Origin: a phage
Reading direction: 5' to 3' (one strand)
Length of the DNA stretch: 64,000 nucleotides
Sequence record: PZ445448.1
Part shown: one piece after another, positions 14,234 through 44,083 of the stretch
Numbering within the stretch: position 1 is the stretch's first letter
How the letters are laid out: each line of letters starts with the position of its first letter
Notes under the pieces: model-generated
Database searches by the model: none
The model's input: only the letters and a program-made list of their open reading frames with translations
Told to the model about the DNA's origin: nothing
Position numbers and translations under genes: made by a program

Positions 14234-14269
14234 TACTTGAAAATTCCTGGCATATCAAGTGTAAGGGGG

Positions 14270-14730
14270 ATTTCTAAAATGGATTTCCTCCTTTTGATAT
14301 TTCACCGGGCTGGATATTTTAAAATTCTTAGAAAATCAGAAAATGGATCGAAAACTAAAATGGATTTTTCAGAGTAGGCGCGACAAGCTGAATAACTCAT
14401 CCTATCGTTTGCACCATATTCCAGGCCACCATTATAGATTTCCCACACATGCTAACCTCCCTCTACTAGAACTTCCTCCACTTGCCCTTAACCTTCTATG
14501 GTAACAATCTAACCACTATCTTGAAGTTGCGGTGCAGCTTTCCAAGTACTCGATCTACTTTTCATTTCATGGCTTGGATTTTCTGAAAATTTTTCTCGAT
14601 AAATTTCTCAGTACTCGATCTGTTTTTCGTTTTCTGAATCGGATTTTCTGGAAATCGTTCCGGATCTCGACCTGAAATTTTTGGGGACGAAATCGATTTT
14701 TCGTTTTCAGAAATGGATTTTTAAAATTTC
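14270..14730. repeat. iteron-like direct repeats in AT-rich noncoding region
   Basis: Repeated AAAATGGATTT and two ~50-bp copies AGTACTCGATCT..GGATTTTCTG(A/G)AAAT. Confidence 0.5.
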
Positions 14731-14868
14731 TATATGGGAATATTTTATGGGATACTGTTTTATAGGAAATTGTTACGGAGGGTAATTAGCATGCTAATTA
14801 AATTTATTAAATGCGAGGAGTTCTCATTTAGAATTTTGAATGATAATCATTCTCGTTTGCAGAATAAC

Positions 14869-14914
14869 GGGCAGGCCCGGTGATTGTCTCCCCCGTCACC
14901 GGTGCCTGCCGTCC
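14869..14914 (+). repeat. long palindromic hairpin; inverted-repeat copy A
   Basis: gggcaggcccggtga..tcaccggtgcctgcc; reverse complement of 14870-14894 matches 24494-24518 at 24/25. Confidence 0.6.
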
Positions 14915-15374
14915 TTTCGATAGGTATATTGTGCCACCTGGCGGGGCCGCTGTCAACACTTTTCAAAAAATTTTTCTAACCTGATGCGCTAACCGCTGCA
15001 ACCTGGCGGGGCCAGCCTGGCAGGACCTAACTGACCAGGTAGGAGAGAATGAAGGCTTGTAAACCTGGTGGGCCTATGCTATAGGACAGGTAACAATTGA
15101 AGAGGAGGTACAAAAATGAAAGGTAATGTGATCCCCTGGAAAATGTAGCTATTAATGACGCTGAGGCTATCGCCCTGGTTGAAAAGGCCATGGCGGGAGC
15201 GTTGGAACATAAAGAAGAGTACGAAAAAATGATGGTTAACCTGGTAGGGCGGCGGCAGGTGGATTCTATCATAAAAAATAATTTAAAATAATTGTTGACA
15301 ACCGGGGGAGTCCTGCTATTCTTACCCTACAAGGTGAACAACACCGCACTAACTAGTAAAGAGGATAAAAAATC

Positions 15375-15636: not shown

Positions 15637-16035
15637 ATGAAAACCACAACCTTTAATTTTGACAATGCCGACTTCTCTTTTTCTGATGTCAAGAACTGCC
15701 GCCGTGATCGTGGATTTTACAAGGCTTATAATCTGGTTGGCCTGGACGATGATAATAATTTGCACGAAGTAGCGGAGATCCGGTACTATGCCGCCGCCAG
15801 CGGTAACACTAACTACTGCGTTTTTTGGATACACGACAACAAGAACAATAAGTACGGTTATACTGGCGGCAAGGCGAGCGGTCACGGTTATGATAAAGCT
15901 AACGCAGCACTTGAGAGCGCATTAAATGCTATGGGGATCACTGCCAACGGCTGGATCTATGAAGAAGAGTTTTTGTCAGCACTTGCTGCCCACCTGGGGT
16001 ATAAAAAGCACATTGTGACATGCGCCCACGAATAA
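15637..16035 (+). CDS. hypothetical protein
   Basis: 132 aa; SD agaggataaaatc. Confidence 0.55.
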   Translation: MKTTTFNFDNADFSFSDVKNCRRDRGFYKAYNLVGLDDDNNLHEVAEIRYYAAASGNTNYCVFWIHDNKNNKYGYTGGKASGHGYDKANAALESALNAMGITANGWIYEEEFLSALAAHLGYKKHIVTCAHE

Positions 16036-16050
16036 AAAAAAAAAAAATTA

Positions 16051-16078
16051 TTGACACGCTGCAAAATTCAAGTAAACT
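16051..16078 (+). promoter_or_regulatory. sigma70 promoter with A-tract UP-like element and leader hairpin
   Basis: A14 run, TTGACA-16 bp-TAAACT, then hairpin ggcgggaaTGTttcccgcc (16089-16107). Confidence 0.6.
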
Positions 16079-16127
16079 ATACACAAAAGGCGGGAATGTT
16101 TCCCGCCAACACAAAGGAAAAAAGATC

Positions 16128-16523
16128 ATGAATAAGAACGTACGCCGCATCATGAACGAACTGGCAAACGATGAAAAAATTATTGATATGCATTTGGTCA
16201 ACATTTGCCGCCGTTGTGTAACATATAACAACCGCGCCGCAAAAGCGCGTGAGATGAACGCAAAAGGCACCTTAAAGCCCTTTCAGGTGGTTGTAAAATC
16301 TATAACCAGTGCAGCAGGCCAGGCGCATGACCACAACAACGGGAGCACTAATATTGATCCGTCTTACGTAATGAAACGGATCCGGACTTGCAAGAATAAA
16401 GAGCAGGTGTATAACGTCATAGATTGGCTGGACTCCCTGGGCGATGTGGTTTATAATAGGTTTTCTGCAGCTATCGAGATCCAGCTTGACAGACTGGACG
16501 GGAAAGTACTGAAAACTTACTAA
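16128..16523 (+). CDS. hypothetical protein
   Basis: Start at ATG 16128 after aaaggaaaaaagatc leader; track ORF starts upstream inside promoter. Confidence 0.55.
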   Translation: MNKNVRRIMNELANDEKIIDMHLVNICRRCVTYNNRAAKAREMNAKGTLKPFQVVVKSITSAAGQAHDHNNGSTNIDPSYVMKRIRTCKNKEQVYNVIDWLDSLGDVVYNRFSAAIEIQLDRLDGKVLKTY

Positions 16524-16524
16524 G

Positions 16525-16572
16525 TTTATTTTTAGATGGCCTTGACGCCAGGGCCATCAATAAAGTAAACTA
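16525..16572 (+). repeat. conserved ~45-bp hairpin element, copy 1
   Basis: tttatttttaGATGGCCTTGacgcCAGGGCCATCaataaagtaaact. Confidence 0.6.
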
Positions 16573-16602
16573 ATCCCAGTTAAGCTAAAAGGAGGCTTGA
16601 AG

Positions 16603-16722
16603 ATGAGCACTACACGCCAGCACACAAAGGTAACTATTATCGTTTGCATCATTGGTTATATCCTGGCGCAAATGTTGATGGGTAGCGCCAACGGTGTCGC
16701 AAAATTTTTCTTAAACTTTTAA
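16603..16722 (+). CDS. small hydrophobic peptide (39 aa)
   Basis: SD aaaggagg 7 nt before ATG; TM-like IIVCIIGYILAQMLMG; below ORF-track cutoff. Confidence 0.35.
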   Translation: MSTTRQHTKVTIIVCIIGYILAQMLMGSANGVAKFFLNF

Positions 16723-16750
16723 TTGACAAGCTAACTTAGATCGGTATACT
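16723..16750 (+). promoter_or_regulatory. sigma70 promoter with leader hairpin
   Basis: TTGACA-16 bp-TATACT; leader gggaaaacttccc. Confidence 0.6.
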
Positions 16751-16800
16751 AAACACATCAACGGGAAAACTTCCCAGAACACACAAAAGGAGAAAACACC

Positions 16801-17142
16801 ATGACCACTATGACCGCCGCAGAAAAAGCTATTCAGATCGCTGCCCTGAAAAAACAGATCGCAGACCTTGAGAATAAGATCGATAACTTTGAAATCGACG
16901 AGGACAAGTACGACGAAAACTATGATGAATGGTTAGACGAGATCTACGGCGAAATTATGATCGGAAACATTTCTTTTCTTCCGTCGCGTATCCTCAAGGA
17001 GCTAGATCCTATCGCTTACCGCTGCGGATTTAGCGACTACATCGACAGCCTGGATATTGAGGACGATGAAGAATACCAGGAATTACAGACAGAGTTGGAA
17101 GAAGCAAAAGAAGAGCTTGCGGAGCTGGAAGAAAACGAGTAA
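16801..17142 (+). CDS. highly acidic coiled-coil protein
   Basis: 113 aa, D/E-rich (DIEDDEEYQELQTELEEAKEELAELEENE). Confidence 0.55.
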   Translation: MTTMTAAEKAIQIAALKKQIADLENKIDNFEIDEDKYDENYDEWLDEIYGEIMIGNISFLPSRILKELDPIAYRCGFSDYIDSLDIEDDEEYQELQTELEEAKEELAELEENE

Positions 17143-17143
17143 G

Positions 17144-17190
17144 ATTATTTTTAGATGGCCTTGACTCCAGGGCCATCAATAAAGTAAACT
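17144..17190 (+). repeat. conserved ~45-bp hairpin element, copy 2
   Basis: Same stem GATGGCCTTG/CAGGGCCATC, loop ACTC. Confidence 0.6.
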
Positions 17191-17231
17191 TTATACTGTT
17201 AACACTGAACTAATGCATAGGAGTTAAAACC

Positions 17232-17477
17232 ATGGCAGCACTAATCACTAAATATTACGCCCCTACCAACACCAAAAGCGCCCGTATCATGGTAAAAGGC
17301 TTCGGACGTAAAAAGGTTTACACCTGGGATTATGCCTTAGACACGGAAGACAACTACACCAACGCGATGACAGATTTTATTAATGAGCTGAACACGCGGA
17401 TCTTGACAAATTATAAAATTACCGATATTGCCTATATAGGGGAAGGCGGGATCTGTTTTGTCGGTATCGTCAAATAA
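17232..17477 (+). CDS. hypothetical protein
   Basis: 81 aa; SD aggagttaaaacc. Confidence 0.5.
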   Translation: MAALITKYYAPTNTKSARIMVKGFGRKKVYTWDYALDTEDNYTNAMTDFINELNTRILTNYKITDIAYIGEGGICFVGIVK

Positions 17478-17488
17478 ACTGTTTTTTC

Positions 17489-17512
17489 GGTGGTCCTGGT
17501 AGCAGGGCCATC
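17489..17512 (+). repeat. diverged copy of hairpin element
   Basis: GGTGGTCCTG gtag CAGGGCCATC; stem kept through wobble-compatible changes. Confidence 0.45.
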
Positions 17513-17535
17513 TATAAAGATAGTTTATCAATACA

Positions 17536-17907
17536 ATGAAAGGAGAAAGTAACATGATCAGTGGGGCAAGTTTTATCATTGGCGCTATTGCTACGGCTTT
17601 AATTGTAAATAAGATCCAGGATAAAAAGGAAAGAGGAAGTACCGCCCTTGCAGAATATCCATTTTGGGCATTCAACGATAACGAAGATTATATTATAAAG
17701 TATAAAAATAAAGAAGGTGACCAAGTAACACCACGACCGATCCCGGCTTACAAAATGCAGGAAACACTATACCGCCTGGAGGCGGGTGGCGCAAAAATTG
17801 TAGACTTTTGGGGATACGACCACACAGATCAGGAAGTTATAAAGCGCCGTATCCGGGCTATTCAGGCCAATATTGAAGTTAGCAAGGGGGGAATATATGA
17901 AAATTAA
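17536..17907 (+). CDS. membrane protein
   Basis: N-terminal TM ISGASFIIGAIATALIV; SD aaaggagaaag. Confidence 0.5.
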   Translation: MKGESNMISGASFIIGAIATALIVNKIQDKKERGSTALAEYPFWAFNDNEDYIIKYKNKEGDQVTPRPIPAYKMQETLYRLEAGGAKIVDFWGYDHTDQEVIKRRIRAIQANIEVSKGGIYEN

Positions 17908-18094
17908 TTTCGAGAAAATTGTAAAGCGCCCTCATGATTCCGAAGAGCTGCCAGAACGCCGCCAGCGTAACAATAAACTGAATAAGCCAAAAAGGTTTGG
18001 GAAGATCTGGCGGAATCATTATGATCGTAAATTGCCGGGCCTACTTTTGGAACGTGAACGACAAGCGGAACGATACCGCCACAAAGACAAATAG
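17897..18094 (+). CDS. small basic protein
   Basis: Start at internal ATG after aagggggg SD; R/K-rich. Confidence 0.4.
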   Translation: MKINFEKIVKRPHDSEELPERRQRNNKLNKPKRFGKIWRNHYDRKLPGLLLERERQAERYRHKDK

Positions 18095-18099
18095 CAACC

Positions 18100-18130
18100 A
18101 ACGCCCCGCCATTGTGCGGGGCTTTTTATT
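18100..18130 (+). terminator. rho-independent terminator
   Basis: cgccccgcc attgt gcggggc followed by TTTTTATT. Confidence 0.7.
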
Positions 18131-18251
18131 TCTATCCTACGAATAGCGCCCCTGGTTGGCCCTGTAAGCGCCAAAAAGGCCCCCACCTATGCAATCGCCC
18201 CTTTAACCTGAAAACATCGCCCAGGGCCGTTTTATGGCGTTAAAAATATCA

Positions 18252-18279
18252 TTGACATCGTCAACAGGTTAGCTATACT
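18252..18279 (+). promoter_or_regulatory. sigma70 promoter
   Basis: TTGACA-16 bp-TATACT. Confidence 0.6.
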
Positions 18280-18311
18280 AACCACATCAAAGAGAGAAAG
18301 GAGTAAACGCC

Positions 18312-18572
18312 ATGCGTAAATTAAAAAATTTTGATAAAGTTGATGTTATCCTGAATAATTTTTACTACTGCAACAACAAGGCTATTTGGTGGCGTGATAG
18401 TTCCACCGATAAAGTCAAAGCGCGCTTTCTTCAGGGGCACTGGCAAGGCCGCCCAGTGATTAAAATCATGGGGCAATTGGTAGCGTTTAAAAATTGCCGC
18501 CGTGTTGATGACGTTGAGGAGATTTTAAACATTTTGCGCCACAATAATTTAAAAAATAGTGTTGACAAGTAA
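18312..18572 (+). CDS. hypothetical protein
   Basis: 86 aa; SD aaaggagtaaacgcc. Confidence 0.5.
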   Translation: MRKLKNFDKVDVILNNFYYCNNKAIWWRDSSTDKVKARFLQGHWQGRPVIKIMGQLVAFKNCRRVDDVEEILNILRHNNLKNSVDK

Positions 18573-18589
18573 ATCTCAATAAGTATAAT
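18562..18589 (+). promoter_or_regulatory. sigma70 promoter with leader hairpin
   Basis: TTGACA-16 bp-TATAAT; hairpin ggcgggaaaacttcccgcc. Confidence 0.65.
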
Positions 18590-18646
18590 TAAACACACAG
18601 GCGGGAAAACTTCCCGCCACTAACAAAGAAAACAGGAGAAAATATC

Positions 18647-19270
18647 ATGACCACCGTTAACATTACCACAGGTTACAATTTAGCTTTCGACGTGCTGACC
18701 GACGAACAAAAAGAAAAAGCCGTTGAAATGGTCCGCGAAAGAGAAGAACACAGCGGGGATAACTTTTTTGCAGAAAGTGTAATTGAAGACTATAAAGAAT
18801 ATATCTTTCCAGAGTATGGCCTTGAAGATACCGAAGTACATTGGTCCGGCTTTTGGTGCCAGGGCGACGGCGCATCAATCAGTGCGGAAAACGTGGATTT
18901 AGAAAAATTCTTGCGTAAAGTCAAGTCTCTGACTAAATTCCGCTCAATTCGTCACTTGTTCGGCACAATGCACGATGGCGAGCTATCCGCAAGTGTTGAG
19001 CGCGATCCATATAGCCGTTATAGTCACGAAAACACTGTAAGCGGGTACATCGATACTACATGGCTAGACCTGACCGCCAAACAAGAAAACAAAGTGGAAG
19101 ACCTGGAAGAACTGATCACCGAGACGGTACGGGAGCTATCCCGCAAGGTTTACGTAGACCTGGAGGAGGCCTATCTAGAACAGTTCACCGCAGAAAACCT
19201 GATCGGCCTTATCGAGGCCAATGATTGGCGGTTTGATGTCGATGAATATGGTGAGATGACTTTTTCATAA
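18647..19270 (+). CDS. hypothetical protein
   Basis: 207 aa acidic; SD aacaggagaaaatatc. Confidence 0.55.
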   Translation: MTTVNITTGYNLAFDVLTDEQKEKAVEMVREREEHSGDNFFAESVIEDYKEYIFPEYGLEDTEVHWSGFWCQGDGASISAENVDLEKFLRKVKSLTKFRSIRHLFGTMHDGELSASVERDPYSRYSHENTVSGYIDTTWLDLTAKQENKVEDLEELITETVRELSRKVYVDLEEAYLEQFTAENLIGLIEANDWRFDVDEYGEMTFS

Positions 19271-19278
19271 ATAAAGTG

Positions 19279-19306
19279 TTGCAATAACCTAAAAACCTGC
19301 TATATT
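19279..19306 (+). promoter_or_regulatory. sigma70 promoter with leader hairpin
   Basis: TTGCAA-16 bp-TATATT; hairpin gggggcaagacgtttgccccc. Confidence 0.6.
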
Positions 19307-19360
19307 AAAACTCAAGGGGGCAAGACGTTTGCCCCCACACAAAACAAAGAGGAAAACATC

Positions 19361-19741
19361 ATGAAAAACACTACTAAAGCTATTGACACTGTTATGTTTA
19401 ACCTGGTTACATTCCGTGAAGATATGAAAGATCTTCCACGTGAAACAGTGTGCGATCACATTGAAAACTATCGCAAACTAATCAAAGAGTTGCCTTTAAA
19501 ACGTGACCAGTATGCGGCTAACGCTATGCTTAACGCCATGATCAAAAAGATGATTCAGTGTGATTTAACTCTGGCCTATGATTATGCAGGTGGTCGTTTT
19601 GCAGTATACAATCAGCCCGTGCCTGGTATGAGCACCACCGAAGAATTGCACGCGTTAAATCTGAAACAAGATGTATGGGATAACATGCCCCGCGTGGTGG
19701 TGTGGGCAGAAAGCGGAAAGATTTACGGCGATAATTTTTAA
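19361..19741 (+). CDS. hypothetical protein
   Basis: 126 aa; SD agaggaaaacatc. Confidence 0.55.
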   Translation: MKNTTKAIDTVMFNLVTFREDMKDLPRETVCDHIENYRKLIKELPLKRDQYAANAMLNAMIKKMIQCDLTLAYDYAGGRFAVYNQPVPGMSTTEELHALNLKQDVWDNMPRVVVWAESGKIYGDNF

Positions 19742-19749
19742 TCAGGTAA

Positions 19750-19777
19750 CAGGCGGCATATTTGCCGCCTTATTGTT
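19750..19777 (+). terminator. rho-independent terminator
   Basis: ggcggca tatt tgccgcc then TTATTGTT. Confidence 0.55.
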
Positions 19778-19805
19778 AAACAGAACTGCAAAAGAGGTAC
19801 ATAGA

Positions 19806-20177
19806 ATGGAATTTATTATTTTGGCTGTAGTAGTTGCCTTGTTCAACGCCTGGATCGCTGGCAAGATAGGTAGATCCGCTTTTCTATGGTTTGTTATATC
19901 TATTTTCCTGGGAGTGGTTGCAACTATTGTATTGGTTATCCTTGCAATTGTTGACAAGGGCGATAATAGAAAGGGTAAAGTGTTTTCCGACCTGTATGAC
20001 GCACAAACGTTTGTCAACGCCTATTATAGTGATCTTCCAGTCTCCCTACGCTGCAGCCTGGCACAACAGGTTTTTGATGAGGCTAAAACCAGAGACCAAG
20101 CCCATGAGATATGTTTAACTGAAGCGGATCGCCTATTTGAGAGGAATAGAAAATATGTGGACCAGCCGTTTAAATAA
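19806..20177 (+). CDS. membrane protein
   Basis: Start at ATG 19806 (SD agaggtacatag); two hydrophobic segments. Confidence 0.5.
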   Translation: MEFIILAVVVALFNAWIAGKIGRSAFLWFVISIFLGVVATIVLVILAIVDKGDNRKGKVFSDLYDAQTFVNAYYSDLPVSLRCSLAQQVFDEAKTRDQAHEICLTEADRLFERNRKYVDQPFK

Positions 20178-20396
20178 CGCCACGTTAATTAATCCCTTTA
20201 GTGAAGATTTGAAGCCAGCCGCCTGGCGTGACGGATTCAATAACGAACGCTTTATTTTCAGGCCTGATCTTGAGGAATTTTATAACAATGGATCGAACAA
20301 CAGCGGAGATAATTTTTCTTGTGGTGTGCGTGGTGATAGGACTCCTGGGGGCCATTGTAAACCACGTCACTACTAACAGGAGGGAAGGGGGAGACG

Positions 20397-20516
20397 ATGA
20401 CAACCAAGGATAAGCCATGCGCTGATAAGGTGCGCCGTGTTATGGTATGGCTTGAGATTATCGCCCTTGAAATATTGTTAGGCGTAGGGATGTACTTTAT
20501 CGCTGTAAGTAACTAA
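20397..20516 (+). CDS. small hydrophobic peptide (39 aa)
   Basis: Strong SD aggagggaaggggga; TM-like VMVWLEIIALEILLGVGMYFIAV. Confidence 0.35.
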   Translation: MTTKDKPCADKVRRVMVWLEIIALEILLGVGMYFIAVSN

Positions 20517-20518
20517 GA

Positions 20519-20550
20519 GCGGCCCCCGATCATGGGGGCCTATCTTTTAA
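20519..20550 (+). terminator. rho-independent terminator
   Basis: ggcccccgatcatgggggcc then TATCTTTT. Confidence 0.6.
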
Positions 20551-20570
20551 AAAATTTTTCTTCCGGGGTG

Positions 20571-20598
20571 TTGCAATCCGGTCCGGAATGTGGATAAT
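20571..20598 (+). promoter_or_regulatory. sigma70 promoter with leader hairpin
   Basis: TTGCAA-16 bp-GATAAT; hairpin ggggagctaatcccc. Confidence 0.6.
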
Positions 20599-20654
20599 AA
20601 CAATCAACGGGGAGCTAATCCCCACCACCACAAAAACCAGAAAGGAGAAACAAA

Positions 20655-20855
20655 ATGAGCAACAATATCCGCGTTATTAACTTCAAAAAAGAAGAAAAAA
20701 TTGCCGTGCTGATTGACGGTCAAGAAATCTTCAAGGGCGACTATGAAGATCATCAAACGGCGATTAGTATCACTCGCGTGATTGGTTATCATAATTTCTA
20801 CCCCCAAGGCGCTGAGGCAGCAGTTAAACGAATCAAAGAGATTGTAGGCCTGTAA
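20655..20855 (+). CDS. hypothetical protein
   Basis: 66 aa; SD aaaggagaaacaaa. Confidence 0.55.
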   Translation: MSNNIRVINFKKEEKIAVLIDGQEIFKGDYEDHQTAISITRVIGYHNFYPQGAEAAVKRIKEIVGL

Positions 20856-20856
20856 A

Positions 20857-20905
20857 ATTTATTTTTAGATGGCCTTGACTTCAGGGCCATCGATAAAGTA
20901 AATTT
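20857..20905 (+). repeat. conserved ~45-bp hairpin element, copy 3
   Basis: Same stem GATGGCCTTG/CAGGGCCATC, loop ACTT. Confidence 0.6.
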
Positions 20906-20948
20906 AAACCCTGTTAAAATACCACGCAGTTAACAAGGAGTGATAGAC

Positions 20949-21248
20949 ATGTTTATCCAGGCTAATAATCTTTATTTCTTTGATGGTCAGATCGTAGATG
21001 GTGTGGAAGTGGAGATCACCGGGTGCCCTGGCGGTCAGGCTATGACTTTTCGGAATAATGCCTTTGATGATTCTCATATCGTTATGAGAATGGAAGTTAC
21101 GAAGCTGGACGACAAGAAAACACTTATTGACTATTCTGTGAAAGATCATCCAGACTACCGCATGATCCATGGTGATTTGTGCATTGTTGACCGTGACAAG
21201 GTGGGCGGCATTGTGATCGCTATTGTGAACGATGTTTTCTCAAACTAA
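20949..21248 (+). CDS. hypothetical protein
   Basis: ATG 20949 with SD aaggag 8 nt upstream. Confidence 0.5.
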   Translation: MFIQANNLYFFDGQIVDGVEVEITGCPGGQAMTFRNNAFDDSHIVMRMEVTKLDDKKTLIDYSVKDHPDYRMIHGDLCIVDRDKVGGIVIAIVNDVFSN

Positions 21249-21265
21249 TTTCAGCAGGCGATTTT

Positions 21266-21616
21266 ATGAAAGTCAAACTATATTACCTTAATGAGCTTAA
21301 CCCCCTTGCCCAGGTCCGCGCCCTAGCTAATACCTTGATTTGTGAGAAATCTGTATATTGTGTTGAGCTTAACGCCATGCGTGAACGTCTCAAAGGTGGT
21401 TACTTTGACATCCATGCTGCAATCAACGGCCTGAATATGGAATTTATACGCTTACGTAACAGCCGCCGGAATCTGGCAAGAATGGAACAAGATCCGGCCC
21501 ACCTTCGTAAGCTGGTTATTGAAAATCATCTGATGTTTAATGCCGAGGGTGATTATTACCATTTTCACCGCAAACGCTGGTACCGTGGCGGCAATACAGG
21601 CAAGAATGCAAAATAA
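21266..21616 (+). CDS. hypothetical protein
   Basis: 116 aa basic ORF. Confidence 0.5.
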   Translation: MKVKLYYLNELNPLAQVRALANTLICEKSVYCVELNAMRERLKGGYFDIHAAINGLNMEFIRLRNSRRNLARMEQDPAHLRKLVIENHLMFNAEGDYYHFHRKRWYRGGNTGKNAK

Positions 21617-21650
21617 GGCCCCTAGCAGGGCCTGCAGCAATATAATCACA

Positions 21651-21684
21651 TAAAGGCCATGCGGTTGCATGGCCTTTATTATTT
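21651..21684 (+). terminator. rho-independent terminator
   Basis: aaaggccatgc ggtt gcatggccttt then ATTATTTT. Confidence 0.7.
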
Positions 21685-21733
21685 TGGCGTTACAACGGCA
21701 TACGGGGCGCTTAAAAAATTTTTAAAGAAGTAC

Positions 21734-21761
21734 TTGCATCATTCCCGACAATATGGATAAT
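21734..21761 (+). promoter_or_regulatory. sigma70 promoter with leader hairpin
   Basis: TTGCAT-16 bp-GATAAT; hairpin gggggaggccccc. Confidence 0.6.
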
Positions 21762-21818
21762 AAGAGTTGTCGAGGGGGAGGCCCCCAATCGTTGACCAGA
21801 TAGATAGGAGTTAAAATC

Positions 21819-22103
21819 ATGGCTATTGTTACCGCTGGCGATGTAGTAGAAATGGAAGCAAAATACTTAAAAGCGGGTATGCACATCCTACGGAATGATC
21901 AAGAGTTATTATTAACGATGGTTGACTATAATCACGGCCAGGATTATCCAAGCATCGACTACTTTTTTGAGTATGTTGATGAAGAGTTGAAAGAGGATGA
22001 GGCCTATTGCGGTGAGTTCTGCAACTTCTTTTGTCCTGATGAGGTTGTAAAGGTTATTTATCAACCTGGCGTAGCTTTCCCGCTGCACGCTATCAATAAA
22101 TAA
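21819..22103 (+). CDS. hypothetical protein
   Basis: 94 aa acidic; SD ataggagttaaaatc. Confidence 0.55.
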   Translation: MAIVTAGDVVEMEAKYLKAGMHILRNDQELLLTMVDYNHGQDYPSIDYFFEYVDEELKEDEAYCGEFCNFFCPDEVVKVIYQPGVAFPLHAINK

Positions 22104-22158
22104 ACCTGGCGGGGCCGAAAAGGCCCCCAATTATGAAAATAAAGAGAGGCAAATCATC

Positions 22159-22392
22159 ATGATGGAACAAATTAAACGCGCCGAGGCTATTAATGGCAAC
22201 GTGATCTATTTTGTCAGCAAAAACGAAAAAGGCGTACCATATGCGGCAGTAATAGTACAACCTGACGGCGATTATTGGTTTACTGTGTACGGCGCTTATT
22301 CTTTTGGGCGTCCAGTGCATGATAAAATTTTGAAAGTAGCGAACCCTACCGGGAAGAATATCACAGCAGAAAAATTTTTTGAAAATAGTTGA
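22159..22392 (+). CDS. hypothetical protein
   Basis: 77 aa; SD aagagaggc. Confidence 0.5.
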   Translation: MMEQIKRAEAINGNVIYFVSKNEKGVPYAAVIVQPDGDYWFTVYGAYSFGRPVHDKILKVANPTGKNITAEKFFENS

Positions 22393-22416
22393 CATGACCA
22401 TATAAGACTGTAATAT
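22389..22416 (+). promoter_or_regulatory. sigma70 promoter with leader hairpin
   Basis: TTGACA-16 bp-TAATAT; hairpin gggggcaactaacccc. Confidence 0.6.
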
Positions 22417-22467
22417 ATAAATCAAAGGGGGCAACTAACCCCACCAACTACAAAGAGGATAAAAATC

Positions 22468-22647
22468 ATGGCTATTATTGCAAAGACTGAGATCGTAGGC
22501 TTAGATTCTATTCTCCTCGCATATGAGGAAGCTATAGAAATGTATGTGGTTTCCTATGGTGAGTATATCCGTGAATATAAATCTATTGATCTGGCTTTTG
22601 AATGTTATATCCGCCAGGTTAATAAAGCGTACGATGATTATCGTTAA
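22468..22647 (+). CDS. hypothetical protein (59 aa)
   Basis: SD agaggataaaaatc; below ORF-track cutoff. Confidence 0.4.
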   Translation: MAIIAKTEIVGLDSILLAYEEAIEMYVVSYGEYIREYKSIDLAFECYIRQVNKAYDDYR

Positions 22648-22653
22648 AATAGT

Positions 22654-22682
22654 TTGACAACAGCCATCTTACAAAGCATAAT
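22654..22682 (+). promoter_or_regulatory. sigma70 promoter with leader hairpin
   Basis: TTGACA-17 bp-CATAAT; hairpin ggcggtggaatggtccgcc. Confidence 0.6.
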
Positions 22683-22734
22683 ACATAAGGCGGTGGAATG
22701 GTCCGCCACCTGGAACAAAGAAGAGGTAAACACC

Positions 22735-22980
22735 ATGAAAAGCAATAAAGGTTATAACGGTTACAAAAACAAAACTCATTGGAATGTAAGCCTTTGGATT
22801 AATAACGATGAGTCATTGTACCGGTTGGCCCAAGGCTTTATTAACGCCAATGCTAATCGTAATGATGCGGCGCGGGATATGATGCTTTTTCTGGAGCTAA
22901 CCGGACAAGATAAGACCCCGGACGGCTTCAAGTACAGCACTACGGCGATCCGTGCCGCGATGGTTGGAATGAAACACTAA
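22735..22980 (+). CDS. hypothetical protein
   Basis: Start at ATG 22735 after agaggtaaacacc leader. Confidence 0.5.
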   Translation: MKSNKGYNGYKNKTHWNVSLWINNDESLYRLAQGFINANANRNDAARDMMLFLELTGQDKTPDGFKYSTTAIRAAMVGMKH

Positions 22981-23057
22981 AAGCACATAGCTGCCTTACC
23001 CTGGGGCTGTGGTAGCGGCCCCATGAATAAGGTTACTAACAGAAGAGAATAAACACC

Positions 23058-23162
23058 ATGAAACAGAAATTAATCGATGCAGTGATCTTGGTTATTGCCC
23101 TGGGTATTGGCCTGATTGCAACCATGTCTAATATGATCTTGTCTTCCAACGGTATCGGGTGA
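23058..23162 (+). CDS. small hydrophobic peptide (34 aa)
   Basis: SD agaagagaataaacacc; TM-like AVILVIALGIGLIATM. Confidence 0.35.
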   Translation: MKQKLIDAVILVIALGIGLIATMSNMILSSNGIG

Positions 23163-23171
23163 GGTTGGCAA

Positions 23172-23387
23172 ATGATCACTAACAAAACAGGCAAAACGGA
23201 ATTTTTACGCAACTTACAGATCGGCAAGCCTGAGATCTGGTACTGCACTAAAACACCACGTGACGAAATGAAAGACTTCACCGCCACGCTGCAACGGGTA
23301 AAGATATCTATCACGCAGAAAAAGGCCTTACTAGTGGTGGAAGGGGAGATCCCCCAAACCGTTGTTATAGTTGAGCGTACAGCATAG
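23172..23387 (+). CDS. hypothetical protein
   Basis: 71-aa ORF. Confidence 0.45.
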   Translation: MITNKTGKTEFLRNLQIGKPEIWYCTKTPRDEMKDFTATLQRVKISITQKKALLVVEGEIPQTVVIVERTA

Positions 23388-23478
23388 TTTAATTTATACA
23401 GATACCTGAAAATTAACCAACAAAGCATAAACAGGCGGTTACCGCCGCCTTAAACGTAGCAGAAAGAGGATAGACACA

Positions 23479-23763
23479 ATGAAAAAGATGATCGCAGTGG
23501 TTACCCTGGTTGTTGGACTTAATGCGCCTGTAATGGCTAAAGAGCTGGCAAAAGAGGTTAATCTAACGGATATTCATGCCGTCAATCAAATCGGGGTTAC
23601 TTATCGCTTATGCCTTGCCGCTAAAACTTTTAAGGACGGCACAACAGAGTACTACGGATTCGAGGGTATCCGGTGCGGTGAGCTTGCTCGCGACCTTAAG
23701 GAAGATCCAGACCTGGAGGATCTGCCCATAACCGTGAACGGAAAAACTTACGTGAACCGTTAA
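23479..23763 (+). CDS. secreted/periplasmic protein
   Basis: Signal-peptide-like MKKMIAVVTLVVGLNAPVMA; SD agaggatagacaca. Confidence 0.55.
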   Translation: MKKMIAVVTLVVGLNAPVMAKELAKEVNLTDIHAVNQIGVTYRLCLAAKTFKDGTTEYYGFEGIRCGELARDLKEDPDLEDLPITVNGKTYVNR

Positions 23764-23765
23764 CC

Positions 23766-23900
23766 ATGAGAAAGATAATTATTACCATGGGGATCGTGGC
23801 GGCAATGTTGGCGATCTTTCCCTTTATGGTTAGGTATGTGCTGATTAATGTTGTCCTGGTAGTCAGCGATCTGGTGTTATATATTAACTCATTGTTTTAG
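23766..23900 (+). CDS. small hydrophobic peptide (44 aa)
   Basis: ATG overlaps upstream stop; TM-like ITMGIVAAMLAIFPFMVRYVLINVVLVV. Confidence 0.3.
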   Translation: MRKIIITMGIVAAMLAIFPFMVRYVLINVVLVVSDLVLYINSLF

Positions 23901-23908
23901 GCGCGATA

Positions 23909-24100
23909 ATGACAGCGGAAGAAGTTAAAAAAGTACTGGCGGTACTGCGTTATCATAATCATTGCAAGGTGAAGAATGATCCTGATTATCTTGATTCATC
24001 CCTTGAAGAGGATACACTACAAGCCATAAGCAACATGCAAGAATTGCTTAAGCGTATGACAGAGAAAAACCGACCGGACTACATAGGGGGTAAAATATGA
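23909..24100 (+). CDS. hypothetical protein
   Basis: 63-aa ORF. Confidence 0.45.
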   Translation: MTAEEVKKVLAVLRYHNHCKVKNDPDYLDSSLEEDTLQAISNMQELLKRMTEKNRPDYIGGKI

Positions 24101-24408
24101 TCGCTATTACGCCAACCGTTTTAGATTGGTATCGGCAACGCATAGCGCCTCCGCTGGCTATCTTCAAAGATGCGGAAGCAAAACAACGCCGGATCTCAAT
24201 ACATGAGATCATCAACCTTAACGCTGGAGGCACACCATACCGCCCAGGACCTGGCCGTGAGATGGACAATACATTGGCGATCCTGAAGATACGCCGTAAA
24301 CGGTCCTCCCTTACGCTGGATTCATTACACACAATGCAGTCCCCGTTCCAGGTGACTGGGAAACGGATCGCCAGGTCCTGGACAAAGGCCAATGACCGGA
24401 CCGTATAA
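24097..24408 (+). CDS. hypothetical basic protein
   Basis: 103 aa, R/K-rich, ATGA overlap with upstream gene. Confidence 0.45.
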   Translation: MIAITPTVLDWYRQRIAPPLAIFKDAEAKQRRISIHEIINLNAGGTPYRPGPGREMDNTLAILKIRRKRSSLTLDSLHTMQSPFQVTGKRIARSWTKANDRTV

Positions 24409-24493
24409 ATAAAAAGTGTTTTGGTACTGATTTTGGGGTTGACTTGTTCGGCCCCTTTTGCTATTCTTATTAAACGGGCGGCACTTGGGAACA

Positions 24494-24518
24494 GGGGGAG
24501 ACAATCACCAGGCCTGCC
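24494..24518 (+). repeat. inverted-repeat copy B
   Basis: gggggagacaatcaccaggcctgcc = reverse complement of 14870-14894 with one mismatch. Confidence 0.6.
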
Positions 24519-30245: not shown

Positions 30246-30563
30246 TTAACGTTCTACAAAAATACCGTTCAGTTCAATAACCAGGAATTTCTGGTCTTCA
30301 CTATCGTCTCGTGCCAGCACCTCACAGACGTATCGGTCATCCCCATCATCATCGCAGTCAAATACAAGACTGAGGACTTTATCATGGTAAACCTTCGCAA
30401 CTACCGCCTCGTAAGTATTGCCGATTGTGAATCCAAGATAATCTCCGATGCATTTGACAACAACATGGTCTCCAGCATTTAAGTCAATCTTCGTCATTAC
30501 TGCGCTCCTTGGGTAATAATACTGTATGTAAAACTTTAACCAGAGATGTGAATAACGCCCCAA
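30246..30563 (-). CDS. hypothetical protein
   Basis: 105-aa ORF. Confidence 0.45.
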   Translation of the reverse strand: MGRYSHLWLKFYIQYYYPRSAVMTKIDLNAGDHVVVKCIGDYLGFTIGNTYEAVVAKVYHDKVLSLVFDCDDDGDDRYVCEVLARDDSEDQKFLVIELNGIFVER

Positions 30564-30652
30564 AACACACCGATAGCGCTAAAACAGACAAGGCCATCAT
30601 TAAAGCTTCAGTAAAATCAGTCATTCCTCACCTCTTGTTAGTCACTATACTA

Positions 30653-30916: not shown

Positions 30917-31005
30917 ATAAGCACCTTACTGAAATACAAGACACAGTGTTAAGGTTACTGACCAGCAAATAATTAACAGTGCCGTTGCAACCTTGGCAAG
31001 ATTTA

Positions 31006-31293
31006 TCATAGTGCCTCTAAGATTTCATATCCTTCGGGTCGGAATACAAGCCACTCCGTGGCTCCGTTTGGTCGATACGCTTTATACAGAACAACCTGGT
31101 CTCGGCACATGCACATGGCTACATAGTTTTCATCCACACCTGCAGCCTGCATTGCATCTTCTTCTCCGGCAACTGCTTTGCTTACAACTTCCTTGGTAGG
31201 CAGGTGTGCGATCAGCTCGTCACCATCATTAATTCCAAAATGGCTGAGTTCGCCGTTGGTATCTTTAATCTTAATCTTAACCAGATCTTTCAT
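31006..31293 (-). CDS. small acidic protein, MKxK paralog family
   Basis: 95 aa; tandem member of diverged family. Confidence 0.5.
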   Translation of the reverse strand: MKDLVKIKIKDTNGELSHFGINDGDELIAHLPTKEVVSKAVAGEEDAMQAAGVDENYVAMCMCRDQVVLYKAYRPNGATEWLVFRPEGYEILEAL

Positions 31294-33666: not shown

Positions 33667-33803
33667 TTAGAGGTCTCCTCAATTATTTGATATTAATAGC
33701 CGTAACCTAACACATTAACTACAACTGCGATTGCAAACATAATTTCAAAGCATGCAATCTCTACATTTGGAACTAATTTCTTGATCACACCCATTGTAGC
33801 ACC

Positions 33804-35971: not shown

Positions 35972-36066
35972 AATTCAGCCTCGCATAGACATAATCACTA
36001 TAAACAGGCAAACAATGAATCCGAATGCCACGCCACCCATAAACGTTAATATTGATGCAATCATAG

Positions 36067-37615: not shown

Positions 37616-37797
37616 CCCTCATCGCACGTCTGATATAACCACTCTATAAAATCTTGATACCATTCGCCCTCTGAGCGCTCCGTAGGCCAATAATCTTCAC
37701 CCTCTCGTGCATTAAAATCTGAGTATTCAACTTTCCACTCCTTTACCAGCTCGTGGAGAAGGTTTTCAGCCTGCTCTAAAGATTTATTTTTTACCAT
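37612..37797 (-). CDS. hypothetical acidic protein
   Basis: Start at ATG (MVKNKS) after aaaaaggagacagca SD; track ORF uses upstream TTG. Confidence 0.4.
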   Translation of the reverse strand: MVKNKSLEQAENLLHELVKEWKVEYSDFNAREGEDYWPTERSEGEWYQDFIEWLYQTCDEG

Positions 37798-37891
37798 TGC
37801 TGTCTCCTTTTTCAAGATAGTTATACATCAGAACTGCACCACCTAAGATGGCTACCAGTAACAATACCCCAGATAGCATCTCAATAAACAT
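37784..37891 (-). CDS. small hydrophobic peptide (35 aa)
   Basis: MFIEMLSGVLLLVAILGGAVLMY; below track cutoff; overlaps neighbours. Confidence 0.25.
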   Translation of the reverse strand: MFIEMLSGVLLLVAILGGAVLMYNYLEKGDSNGKK

Positions 37892-38016
37892 GGCTTGAAA
37901 CACTGGAAGGCCTCCCTAAATTAACGCACCATTTTAAATACATGCTCTTTTCCCATAAAGGTGCCTGGCTAAGATCTGCGTAGAACGCAATCTCTTTAAG
38001 AACAGTATAAACAGTT

Positions 38017-38253
38017 TTAGGTGCGGTCTCCATCCCTACCCTCCTTTTTCTCCTTACGGATATTCTTGTAGTAATCAACCAAGCACATTATCACGATGAA
38101 GATAACAACAGGCCAAAAAGGTGCAGCAGTGATGATGGTGATAAAATCATCAAACTTCACCCTTCGTCTGGACACGATGCATACACCTGTCAAGAATACC
38201 GCTGTTATAACGGACATTACCAGGTAACCTATTAGCACAACATTTATACTCAT
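38017..38253 (-). CDS. two-TM membrane protein (holin-like topology)
   Basis: Two hydrophobic segments then charged tail KNIRKEKKEGRDGDRT; not adjacent to the endolysin. Confidence 0.4.
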   Translation of the reverse strand: MSINVVLIGYLVMSVITAVFLTGVCIVSRRRVKFDDFITIITAAPFWPVVIFIVIMCLVDYYKNIRKEKKEGRDGDRT

Positions 38254-43970: not shown

Positions 43971-44083
43971 AGATACTCCGCATCACATTTAGGGCAATGC
44001 CAAATAAAATCGTCTAGTGCCTTGCACCAACGAAGATTGCAACTACATCCGCACTTGCAAATTTTATAAATACCTGATGACAT
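43967..44083 (-). CDS. small Cys-rich zinc-ribbon peptide (38 aa)
   Basis: MSSGIYKICKCGCSCNLRWCKALDDFIWHCPKCDAEYL; stop overlaps nrdG start. Confidence 0.3.
   Translation of the reverse strand: MSSGIYKICKCGCSCNLRWCKALDDFIWHCPKCDAEYL

What the first reader, a model, noticed from the sequence alone, without database searches (positions are those of the whole stretch)
16603..23900. Several tiny hydrophobic peptide genes missed by the ORF track
Seen: ORFs of 34-44 codons with good SD sequences and single predicted TM helices at 16603-16722, 20397-20516, 23058-23162, 23766-23900 (and 37784-37891 on minus). They are slotted between cassette genes. Inference: small membrane proteins.
Basis: partly seen in the sequence, partly recalled or inferred. 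Interest (0 to 1): 0.45.

Follow-up and report, generated by a model that had tools for sequence, protein, structure and literature searches.

The report
Known tiny membrane-peptide genes of rV5-like phage
The five short hydrophobic reading frames are real, conserved genes for 34-44-residue membrane peptides of an rV5-like E. coli phage. They were already annotated and called "membrane protein, 1 TMD" in the 2013 rV5 genome paper, so the finding is correct but ordinary, and their function is still unknown.

Summary
The window is a Vequintavirus, an rV5-like lytic E. coli myophage, 98% identical to phages MaxTheCat and 12A_SA_NWU. All five ORFs exist where stated. Each has a 19-residue window with mean Kyte-Doolittle hydropathy of 2.1-2.6. 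Such ORFs appear in at most 0.33% of shuffles of the same intergenic gaps.

The ORFs are intact, at fixed length, in every relative that keeps the region. In-frame pN/pS is 0.18-0.53. s2, s3 and s4 also survive at 62-76% nucleotide identity in more distant phages.

- s4 has no Shine-Dalgarno (SD) site; it starts 2 nt after the stop of a signal-peptide protein gene.
- The SD of s3 is weak.
- s5 most likely starts at GTG 37903, not ATG 37891.

None of this is new. The five are rV5 ORFs 193, 181, 173, 170 and 131, listed as "membrane protein, 1 TMD" in Kropinski et al. 2013 Table S3, and each is a full-length PHROG of unknown function. Many GenBank records do omit them.

The most likely role is inferred, not shown: dispensable inner-membrane micro-proteins that bind larger membrane proteins. 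s1-s4 lie in a region of sigma-70-type promoter-like sites.

Verdict: observation largely confirmed, interpretation supported, already known, low interest.

The parts
16603..16722 (+). s1: gene for a 39-aa peptide, MSTTRQHTKVTIIVCIIGYILAQMLMGSANGVAKFFLNF. It is rV5 ORF193/gp188 and phrog_16391. Basic N-terminus, hydrophobic residues 10-28.
   Evidence: SD AAGGAGG. PHROG E = 1.8e-31, full length. Intact in 11 relatives, pN/pS 0.18. tblastn finds it in 112 phage records, all rV5-like. In the large protein collection there are 11 clusters, all of 39 aa. rV5 Table S3 lists it as 'membrane protein, 1 TMD'.
20397..20516 (+). s2: gene for a 39-aa peptide, MTTKDKPCADKVRRVMVWLEIIALEILLGVGMYFIAVSN. It is rV5 ORF181/gp176 and phrog_13629. 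Charged N-terminus, then a helix that holds two glutamates.
   Evidence: PHROG E = 7.6e-32. Residues 17-37 are invariant in 13 genomes, although 5 of those codons vary synonymously. pN/pS is 0.30. 118 phage records hold it. A 63%-identical homologue lies in an unrelated gene neighbourhood on a 132-kb contig, with both Glu kept.
23058..23162 (+). s3: gene for a 34-aa peptide, MKQKLIDAVILVIALGIGLIATMSNMILSSNGIG. It is rV5 ORF173/gp168 (annotated there as 46 aa from an upstream start) and phrog_14631.
   Evidence: PHROG E = 8.1e-23. 34-codon homologues sit unannotated in phAPEC8 (L013 2443-2547) and the Justusliebigvirus PATM (L020 586-690). Both keep the tail ATM(S/A)NMILSS(N/H)GIG. pN/pS is 0.35-0.53 at 62-65% nucleotide identity.
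23766..23900 (+). s4: gene for a 44-aa peptide, MRKIIITMGIVAAMLAIFPFMVRYVLINVVLVVSDLVLYINSLF. It is rV5 ORF170/gp165 and phrog_16005. No SD; translationally coupled to the upstream gene.
   Evidence: PHROG E = 1.5e-26. The TAACCATG junction is kept in phAPEC8 and IMG/VR contigs, with pN/pS 0.34-0.53. phAPEC8 gp248 is the same gene, annotated 7 codons too short. It is absent from isim, Murica and L028. AF2 predicts one helix, residues 2-43, pLDDT 95.6.
37784..37903 (-). s5: gene for a 39-aa peptide, (V/M)FQAMFIEMLSGVLLLVAILGGAVLMYNYLEKGDSNGKK. It is rV5 ORF131/gp126 and phrog_15251. The likely start is the GTG at 37903; the charged tail is C-terminal.
   Evidence: GGGAGG lies 7 nt before the GTG. 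It matches rV5 ORF131 at 119 of 120 nt. PHROG E = 6.6e-31 over positions 1-39 of 39. 116 phage records hold it. Table S3 lists '1 TMD'.
16521..16571 (+). 51-nt repeat unit upstream of s1: a hairpin, GATGGCC...GGCCATC, with TTGACG in its loop, followed by TAAACT. It is a sigma-70-type promoter-like site. Further copies lie at 17140, 17475 and 20854.
   Evidence: Repeat family D1. Promoter-like match 16542-16571, 9 of 12.
16723..16750 (+). Promoter-like site (TTGACA, 16 nt, TATACT) that begins at the base after the s1 stop codon. rV5 annotates the equivalent site as promoter P192.
   Evidence: 11 of 12 match. rV5 regulatory feature P192.
20521..20540 (+). Intrinsic-terminator-like hairpin with a T-run, 5 nt after the s2 stop codon.
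   Evidence: 8-bp stem with 7 G-C pairs, then TATCTTTT. Annotated as a terminator in Murica and HdK5.
23172..23387 (+). 71-aa gene, 9 nt downstream of s3. Its SD (GAGG) overlaps the s3 stop codon. It is the conserved neighbour of s3.
   Evidence: tblastn finds it in 262 phage records across Vequintavirinae and Stephanstirmvirinae. s3 or an s3-like small hydrophobic ORF lies just upstream in Vequintavirus, Phapecoctavirus, Justusliebigvirus and LTH01, but not in Certrevirus or Seunavirus.
23479..23763 (+). 94-aa gene with an N-terminal signal-peptide-like sequence (MKKMIAVVTLVVGLNAPVMA) and two Cys. It lies upstream of s4 and is coupled to it.
   Evidence: phrog_9845, function unknown. 172 phage records hold it. 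The AF2 model is good for residues 21-94 but has no Foldseek PDB match at E <= 0.001. The pairing with s4 is frequent but not obligate.
38017..38253 (-). 78-aa protein with two hydrophobic segments (rV5 ORF129, 'putative holin'), two genes upstream of s5.
   Evidence: phrog_10061, function unknown.

Best explanation
The five ORFs are genuine protein-coding genes of an rV5-like (Vequintavirus) lytic coliphage, and they are already annotated. Each encodes a 34-44-residue peptide that is little more than one membrane-spanning helix with a short polar end.

s1-s4 lie in the plus-strand block of tiny genes, which is rich in E. coli sigma-70-type promoter-like sites and hairpin elements. They are therefore probably made by host RNA polymerase soon after infection. 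s5 lies in the minus-strand block that also holds nucleotide-metabolism genes and a putative holin.

The peptides most likely insert into the inner membrane. They most likely act as dispensable accessory micro-proteins that bind specific larger membrane or periplasmic proteins of the host or phage through helix-helix and tail contacts. Plausible outcomes are remodelling of envelope functions, blocking superinfection, or blunting membrane-bound defence.

How firm each step is:
- Shown here: the frames exist, are hydrophobic beyond chance, and are conserved as coding sequence.
- Inferred: membrane insertion, early timing, and action by protein binding.
- Unknown: the targets.

My sub-confidences are about 0.9 for real genes, 0.85 for membrane-located, and 0.3-0.4 for the binding mechanism.
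For: Identity of the window: 98.3% to rV5-like phages over 8.5 kb.

Prior annotation: rV5 gp188, gp176, gp168, gp165 and gp126 and 'membrane protein, 1 TMD' in PMC3606486 Table S3. Each has a full-length PHROG match, E from 1e-23 to 1e-32.

Beyond chance: hydrophobic ORFs appear in at most 0.33% of gap shuffles.

Coding signal:
- Codon-usage log-odds in frame are 0.28-0.42 bits per codon for s1, s2, s3 and s5. Long genes give 0.36 +/- 0.19 and off-frame reads give -0.52.
- There are no frameshifts or stops in any relative.
- In-frame pN/pS is 0.18, 0.30, 0.38 and 0.53, and is lowest in the ORF frame for s1-s3.
- Amino-acid changes in the helices are conservative, such as I/V, G/S and M/L/I.

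Sequence-specific constraint, which argues for partner binding rather than bulk hydrophobicity:
- The s2 helix, with E20 and E25, is invariant in 13 genomes despite 5 synonymous-only codons. It is kept at 63% identity in a distant phage.
- The s3 C-terminal tail is kept across two subfamilies (4 synonymous against 2 non-synonymous codon differences). Its helix has changed at 15 of 20 codons and stays hydrophobic.

Expression context: promoter-like sites flank s1, a terminator-like hairpin follows s2, and s3 and s4 are tightly coupled to neighbouring genes.

Dispensability: s4 is lost in isim, Murica and L028, and the s1 region is replaced in typing phage 4.

Precedent: the small early membrane protein Gp11 of phage PhiNM1 binds MurG and DivIC (PMC11237401).
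Against: - None of these peptides has Ribo-seq, proteomic, localisation or genetic data in the papers I found. The rV5 mass spectrometry covered virions only.
- For s4 the pN/pS of 0.53 is no better than one alternative frame, and its codon score is marginal at 0.05. Its case rests on ORF preservation at 72-79% nucleotide identity.
- No homology to any characterised small membrane regulator, toxin or exclusion protein was found.
- No partner protein is identified. The two neighbour pairings are separable.
- Early timing is inferred only from consensus promoter matches.
Confidence: 0.6

Rival explanations
1. The peptides are membrane-damaging agents rather than specific binders. They would resemble type I toxins, viroporins or (anti)holins: they oligomerise, depolarise or permeabilise the inner membrane, and so help host shut-off, superinfection exclusion by loss of proton-motive force, or lysis timing. 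s5 in particular could belong to the lysis machinery.
For: - Their size and hydrophobicity match the Hok, TisB and Ibs class of toxins and single-TMD holins (own knowledge).
- s2 carries two glutamates inside its helix, a feature compatible with an ion path in an oligomer.
- s5 lies two genes downstream of the 2-TMD 'putative holin', among other membrane proteins.
Against: - No match to any toxin, holin or small-protein model in NCBIfam at E <= 10 or in Pfam.
- s1-s4 are not in a lysis cassette. They sit in the region of sigma-70-type promoter-like sites, in sense orientation within operons, and I saw no antisense-RNA arrangement.
- The strict residue-level conservation of the s2 helix and the s3 tail exceeds what pore formers usually need. 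This last point is an inference.
- The holin assignment of ORF129 itself rests only on its two TMDs.
Confidence: 0.2
2. s4 together with the upstream 94-aa secreted protein, and perhaps s3 with the 71-aa protein, form dedicated two-gene envelope modules. One example would be a superinfection-exclusion pair analogous in logic to T4 Imm and Sp, in which the peptide anchors or assists the larger partner.
For: - The TAACCATG stop-start junction between the 94-aa gene and s4 is kept in Vequintavirus, Phapecoctavirus and IMG/VR contigs.
- The 94-aa protein has a signal-peptide-like N-terminus and two conserved Cys.
- s3 always sits 9-10 nt upstream of the 71-aa gene. In LTH01 an unrelated small hydrophobic ORF fills the same slot.
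Against: - The pairs are separable. The 94-aa gene occurs without s4 (isim, Murica, L028), and s4 occurs with a truncated 94-aa gene (L027).
- The 71-aa gene occurs without s3 in Certrevirus and Seunavirus.
- The AF2 model of the 94-aa protein has no Foldseek match in the PDB at E <= 0.001, and no PHROG, Pfam or PDB sequence link to an exclusion protein was found.
Confidence: 0.15
3. The ORFs are not functional proteins. They would be chance frames in U-rich intergenic DNA, or short upstream frames whose translation matters only for expression of the next gene.
For: - An ORF of this length alone is not rare in the gaps: 8-39% of shuffles.
- s3 and s4 are coupled to downstream or upstream genes.
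- s4 has a marginal codon score and pN/pS.
- Several annotation pipelines skip these ORFs.
Against: - Hydrophobic ORFs are at most 0.33% of shuffles.
- Frames of fixed length are kept in more than 100 genomes and at 62-76% nucleotide identity across subfamilies.
- Substitutions are synonymous-biased in the ORF frame only for s1-s3.
- s2 moved as a single gene into a different neighbourhood and kept its frame.
Confidence: 0.05

Closest known systems
rV5 ORF193/gp188, ORF181/gp176, ORF173/gp168, ORF170/gp165 and ORF131/gp126 (Kropinski et al. 2013, PMC3606486, Table S3), and PHROGs 16391, 13629, 14631, 16005 and 15251
   Same: These are the same genes. They are syntenic, 82-100% identical in protein, of the same lengths, and already labelled 'membrane protein, 1 TMD'.
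   Different: Nothing of substance. rV5 annotates s3 from a start 12 codons further upstream. The better SD in rV5 itself lies before the 34-codon start.
Small single-helix regulators of bacterial membrane proteins, such as E. coli AcrZ, MgrB, MgtS, PmrR, KdpF and CydX (own knowledge)
   Same: They have fewer than 50 residues and a single transmembrane helix. They work by binding a larger membrane protein. The residue-specific conservation of the helix seen in s2 is typical of that mode.
   Different: There is no sequence relationship (NCBIfam gives no hit at E <= 10). The s-peptides are phage-encoded and restricted to rV5-like phages and their neighbours. No partner is known.
Phage early small membrane proteins that target host machinery, such as Gp11 of S. 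aureus phage PhiNM1 (PMC11237401)
   Same: An early phage gene product that is a small membrane protein and acts by binding host membrane-associated proteins (MurG and DivIC).
   Different: Different host and phage, with no homology detected. No growth-inhibition data exist for the rV5 peptides.
T4 superinfection-exclusion proteins Imm and Sp (Spackle; PMC7677548)
   Same: Early-expressed phage proteins located in the inner membrane or periplasm. The 94-aa secreted protein plus s4 resembles this pair in layout only.
   Different: By my own recollection Imm and Sp are about 83 and 97 aa and are not adjacent genes. No sequence match was found, and the AF2 model of the 94-aa protein has no significant Foldseek match in the PDB.
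Type I toxins (Hok, TisB, Ibs, Ldr, ShoB) and single-TMD holins or antiholins (own knowledge)
   Same: Size, hydrophobic helix and a short charged end. s5 lies near a putative holin.
   Different: No model match. No antisense RNA arrangement was seen. s1-s4 lie among sigma-70-type promoter-like sites rather than in a lysis cassette.
Pfam DUF7396 (PF24129), for s4 only
   Same: A full-length alignment (residues 2-43 to profile positions 3-44 of 46), seen in 9 of 14 family members.
   Different: The score of 16 bits is below the gathering threshold of 27 bits, and the best E-value is 0.004. The family itself has no known function.

Membership tests
Orthologues of rV5 small 'membrane protein, 1 TMD' ORFs 193, 181, 173, 170 and 131 | Sequence identity and the same position between the same neighbouring genes in rV5 | tested here: met
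   Alignments to L003 and L026. Table S3 of PMC3606486.
PHROGs 16391, 13629, 14631, 16005 and 15251 | A significant full-length match to the family profile | tested here: met
   E = 1.8e-31, 7.6e-32, 8.1e-23, 1.5e-26 and 6.6e-31, each covering the whole profile.
Integral (bitopic) membrane proteins | A hydrophobic stretch of about 19 residues able to span the bilayer | tested here: met
   19-residue Kyte-Doolittle means of 2.08-2.56. TMHMM and Phobius calls by the rV5 authors. AF2 predicts a helix for s4.
Integral (bitopic) membrane proteins | Demonstrated membrane localisation and topology | not testable with these tools
   Needs fractionation or reporter fusions. No such data were found in the papers searched.
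Pfam DUF7396 (s4) | A score at or above the Pfam gathering threshold | tested here: not met
   16.1 bits against a cut-off of 27. 9 of 14 members give weak hits, best E = 0.0042.
Type I toxins and named bacterial small membrane proteins (NCBIfam models) | A match to a curated family model | tested here: not met
   No family at E <= 10 for any of 8 peptides.
Holins and antiholins | Location in a lysis cassette with the endolysin or spanins, and a role in lysis timing | tested here: inconclusive
   s1-s4 lie among sigma-70-type promoter-like sites, far from the rV5 lysin gp89. s5 is two genes from a 'putative holin' whose own assignment is unproven. Lysis timing cannot be tested here.
   The window is a lytic Vequintavirus genome. 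The repeats between genes are hairpins that carry promoter-like hexamers, not attC sites. I ran no dedicated integrase search.
T4 Imm/Sp-type superinfection exclusion | Homology to Imm or Sp, or demonstrated exclusion | tested here: not met
   No PHROG, Pfam or PDB sequence link. The 94-aa model has no Foldseek PDB match at E <= 0.001. Exclusion activity itself cannot be tested here.

The most novel reading that the evidence does not exclude
At least one of the peptides is a sequence-specific transmembrane-helix inhibitor of a defined host inner-membrane machine or of a membrane-anchored anti-phage effector. The best candidates are s2, whose helix carries two buried glutamates and is invariant, and s3, whose tail is conserved across subfamilies. 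Either would define a new family of phage 'membrane micro-inhibitors'.
Probability: 0.3. Interest if true: 0.5.

Novelty: already known. Interest (0 to 1): 0.15.

Why it matters
As a discovery it matters little. The genes have been in the rV5 RefSeq record, and in a published table with the same 'membrane protein' reading, for over a decade.

Two practical points come out of the work.
- Annotation of these peptides is patchy. s4 is annotated in 2 of 10 relatives examined. s3 is unannotated in the phAPEC8 RefSeq record and in a Justusliebigvirus. phAPEC8 gp248 (the s4 homologue) is started 7 codons too late.
- s2 and s3 show residue-level constraint that makes them reasonable first targets for anyone screening small phage proteins for host membrane targets.

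Micro-proteins of this kind are a poorly understood share of phage accessory genes.

Tried and rejected
- Integron or cassette reading: rejected. The window is a lytic rV5-like phage, and the repeats between genes are hairpins that carry promoter-like hexamers.
- Non-coding RNA reading: no Rfam family and no tRNA anywhere in the window.
- Known small-protein, toxin or holin families: Pfam and NCBIfam gave nothing above threshold.
- Function through neighbours: the 94-aa, 71-aa, 63-aa, 103-aa, 73-aa, 113-aa, 133-aa and 152-aa neighbours have no informative Pfam or PHROG hit. The only match above a Pfam cut-off is DUF7249, for the 81-aa gene.
- Structure of the 94-aa partner: the AF2 model has mean pLDDT 79, with the mature part at 84-94. 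Foldseek against the PDB gave no match at E <= 0.001, and the profile search of PDB sequences gave only noise.
- AF2 of s4: one 42-residue helix. This does not decide between a single span and a hairpin.
- IMG/VR scans with the two anchor proteins returned only 3 loci each.
- The large protein collection found only rV5-like and phAPEC8-like phage homologues for s1 and s4. s2, s3 and s5 are too short for that tool.
- Literature: no transcriptome, Ribo-seq or functional study of these genes was found. The O177 phage 'proteomics' paper uses only in-silico tools and reports no mass spectrometry. The PhageMaP essentiality paper covers T7 and Bas63 only. By my own knowledge Bas63 is not a Vequintavirus, and the paper gives no data on these genes.
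- DUF7396 and DUF3096: nothing useful in the literature.

Full report
**What the window is.** An 8.5-kb stretch around the finding (16000-24500) matches 302 phage records. The best matches are 98.3% identical over the full length: Escherichia phages vB_EcoM_12A_SA_NWU, MaxTheCat and 366V_SA_NWU. All are Vequintavirus, the rV5-like lytic myophages. Only one plasmid record matches, and at 137.6 kb it is the size of an rV5-like genome. The region from about 15 to 26 kb is a plus-strand run of very small genes. It is rich in sigma-70-type promoter-like sites (43 found against 26.2 +/- 5.9 in shuffles) and terminator-like hairpins (29 against 12.3 +/- 3.6). The rV5 paper describes this part of the genome as '88 mainly small ORFs' and proposes host-type promoters throughout (PMC3606486).

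**Checking the observation.** All five ORFs are present.
- The best 19-residue Kyte-Doolittle means are 2.08, 2.15, 2.55, 2.56 and 2.34.
- In 3000 shuffles of each intergenic gap, an ORF of at least 34 codons appeared in 8-39% of cases. One with such a hydrophobic stretch appeared in only 0.03-0.33%.

The SD claim is only partly right.
- s1 (AAGGAGG) and s2 (GGGGGAG) have clear sites.
- s3 has only AGAAGAGAA in this window. Its homologues in rV5 (AAGAGGA) and phAPEC8 (TGAGGGT) are better.
- s4 has none. It starts 2 nt after the stop of the upstream gene, in a TAACCATG junction.
- For s5, GGGAGG is spaced for the GTG at 37903, which is the start annotated in rV5.

**Are they genes?** I fetched the homologous region from 12 Vequintavirus genomes that are 88-100% identical in DNA around the ORFs.
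- Wherever the region is present, each ORF is intact and of unchanged length. There is no frameshift or internal stop in any full-length copy; the V18 copy of s4 is cut off 5 nt short by the end of the fetched stretch.
- Pairwise pN/pS in the ORF frame is 0.18 (s1), 0.30 (s2), 0.38 (s3) and 0.53 (s4). For s1-s3 the other two frames give 0.76 or more, or show no synonymous differences at all. For s4 one alternative frame is equally low.
- Amino-acid replacements inside the helices are conservative, such as I/V, G/S and M/L/I/F.
- Codon-usage log-odds, trained on 28 long genes of the window, are 0.28, 0.37, 0.40 and 0.42 bits per codon for s1, s2, s3 and s5. The first 40 codons of long genes give 0.36 +/- 0.19, and off-frame reads give -0.52. 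s4 scores 0.05.
- tblastn finds s1, s2 and s5 in 112, 118 and 116 phage records, always at 80% coverage or more. The lower counts for s3 and s4 (31 and 43) are limited by E-values, because even 100% matches score only 6e-3 and 2e-6.

**Deeper conservation.**
- s3 has a 34-codon homologue, MLEKIFTVAVVGLALSVGVVATMANMILSSHGIG, in Phapecoctavirus phAPEC8 and in the Justusliebigvirus PATM. It is unannotated in both and lies 10 nt upstream of the conserved 71-aa gene. Nucleotide identity is 62-65% and pN/pS is 0.35-0.53. The last 14 codons differ by 4 synonymous and 2 non-synonymous codons. The first 20 differ at 15 codons non-synonymously and stay hydrophobic.
- s4 is present in phAPEC8, where gp248 is annotated 7 codons short. 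The full 44-codon frame and the TAACCATG junction are kept. pN/pS is 0.34-0.53 at 72-79% identity.
- s2 has a 63%-identical, 40-aa relative on a 132-kb Logan contig, in a neighbourhood that shares no adjacent gene with this window. It keeps VW-EIIALE--LG-GMYFIAV, including both glutamates. pN/pS for the helix is 0.28.
- s1 was found only in rV5-like contigs: 11 protein clusters, all of 39 aa.

**Already known.** rV5 (NC_011041) annotates all five as gp188, gp176, gp168, gp165 and gp126. Table S3 of Kropinski et al. 2013 lists ORF193 (39 aa), ORF181 (39 aa), ORF173 (46 aa), ORF170 (44 aa) and ORF131 (39 aa) each as 'membrane protein, 1 TMD', based on TMHMM and Phobius (PMC3606486). MaxTheCat annotates s1-s4 as bas57_0104, 0114, 0122 and 0125. 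Each peptide matches a PHROG of unknown function over its full length. Annotation is nevertheless uneven. Among the fetched relatives, s1 is annotated in 6 of 11, s3 in 10 of 12 and s4 in 2 of 10. Many tblastn matches have no feature under them.

**Context of each peptide.**
- s1 follows a 51-nt repeat: a hairpin with TTGACG in its loop, then TAAACT. Its stop codon abuts a TTGACA-16-TATACT site, which rV5 annotates as promoter P192.
- s2 is the last frame before a strong terminator-like hairpin.
- s3 is followed after 9 nt by the 71-aa gene, whose SD overlaps the s3 stop codon.
- s4 is coupled to a 94-aa gene with a signal-peptide-like N-terminus.
- s5 overlaps both of its neighbours. It lies two genes after the 2-TMD 'putative holin' and before two further single-TMD proteins.

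**Are the pairings obligate?** No.
- isim, Murica and a Logan contig (L028) have the 94-aa gene without s4.
- Another contig (L027) has s4 next to a truncated 94-aa gene.
- Certrevirus and Seunavirus have the 71-aa gene without s3.
- LTH01 has an unrelated small hydrophobic ORF in the s3 slot.

**Search for function.**
- Pfam and NCBIfam give nothing above threshold. s4 shows a sub-threshold, full-length similarity to DUF7396: 16 bits against a 27-bit cut-off, seen in 9 of 14 members.
- AF2 models s4 as a single helix, residues 2-43, with pLDDT 95.6.
- The mature part of the 94-aa partner models confidently, but no Foldseek hit in the PDB reaches E <= 0.001. There is also no PDB sequence hit.
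- No paper in the library reports expression or function for these genes.

**Most likely mechanism (inference).** These are dispensable micro-proteins that insert into the inner membrane. For s1-s4 the surrounding sigma-70-type promoter-like sites suggest early expression. I think they most likely act by binding larger membrane or periplasmic proteins. The reason is the residue-level conservation of the s2 helix (two buried Glu, and a G-x-G motif) and of the s3 tail, which exceeds what bulk hydrophobicity requires. Precedents exist in bacterial small membrane regulators (own knowledge) and in PhiNM1 Gp11 (PMC11237401).

The rivals are:
- non-specific membrane damage or a lysis role, most plausible for s5;
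- dedicated two-gene exclusion modules;
- non-functional or purely regulatory frames, which the conservation data make unlikely.

**Verdict.** The interpretation as small membrane proteins is supported. The finding is already known and ordinary for a large lytic phage. The function is unknown and would need experiments.

Noticed in passing
window 33693-33794 (-), 30484-30624 (-), 35975-36064 (-), 30926-31009 (-): There are four more small hydrophobic ORFs, with SD-like sites where I looked (33, 29 and 27 aa), that the finding does not list. The 33-aa ORF is rV5 ORF145 (phrog_15151) and sits next to the RaiA-like gene. The 46-aa ORF appears to be rV5 ORF156 by size and position. A 29-aa ORF (MIASILTFMGGVAFGFIVCLFIVIMSMRG) is intact but unannotated in rV5. 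A 27-aa ORF (MINLAKVATALLIICWSVTLTLCLVFQ) has no PHROG. The window therefore holds at least nine such peptides.
   Followed up: partly
window 16521-16571, 17140-17190, 17475-17525, 20854-20904: A 51-nt repeat occurs between small genes: a hairpin with a TTGAC -35-like hexamer in its loop, followed by a TAAACT -10-like hexamer. It resembles in layout the promoter/stem-loop 'PeSL' motifs proposed to mediate modular gene shuffling in T4-type phages (PMC2839356, PMC4122927). Gene-content differences between relatives fall in this region.
   Followed up: partly
L013 (phAPEC8 NC_020079) 2443-2547 and 4160-4294; L020 (PATM) 586-690: There are annotation gaps in reference genomes of another subfamily. 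The s3 homologue is unannotated in phAPEC8 and PATM. phAPEC8 gp248 (the s4 homologue) is annotated from an internal ATG, 7 codons short.
   Followed up: yes
L029 (Logan SRR24653869 contig, 132 kb) 1785-1904 and 2636-2713: In the distant phage that carries the s2 homologue, a 39-aa Lambda_Kil-family (PF06301) gene lies about 600 nt upstream. An uncalled 25-aa hydrophobic ORF (MRERIEGFLMLLWFIFILVAYYLIAG) with an AAGGAG site follows the s2 homologue directly.
   Followed up: partly
window 43967-44083 (-): A 38-aa Cys-rich ORF (MSSGIYKICKCGCSCNLRWCKALDDFIWHCPKCDAEYL) has a strong SD (AGGAGG). It matches phrog_20137, which is labelled 'ribonucleotide reductase', at full length. It looks like a small zinc-ribbon-like protein.
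   Followed up: partly
window about 25900-27650 and 14240-15300: Two stretches have no convincing ORFs. The first has the lowest G+C in the window (0.36 for 26-27 kb) and lies where gene strand and cumulative GC skew switch. It probably corresponds to the ORF-free region that the rV5 paper notes at 104013-106618. It holds short 15-18-nt tandem repeats. The second holds 65-74-nt spaced direct repeats at 14536-14721.
   Followed up: partly
phage records MG0656xx (for example MG065674, MG065682): About 17-22 GenBank records named 'Campylobacter phage', with host Campylobacter jejuni, carry DNA at least 93% identical to this E. coli rV5-like region and hold all five peptides. They are probably mislabelled or contaminant assemblies.
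   Followed up: no
window 23868-23900 (C-terminus of s4): s4 occurs with two alternative C-terminal ends...SDLVLYINSLF and ...SDLLETVGT(L/W)F. Both occur within Vequintavirus, and the second is shared with Phapecoctavirus. Residue 23 is R in Vequintavirus and E in Phapecoctavirus. This suggests recombination inside a 44-codon gene.
   Followed up: no
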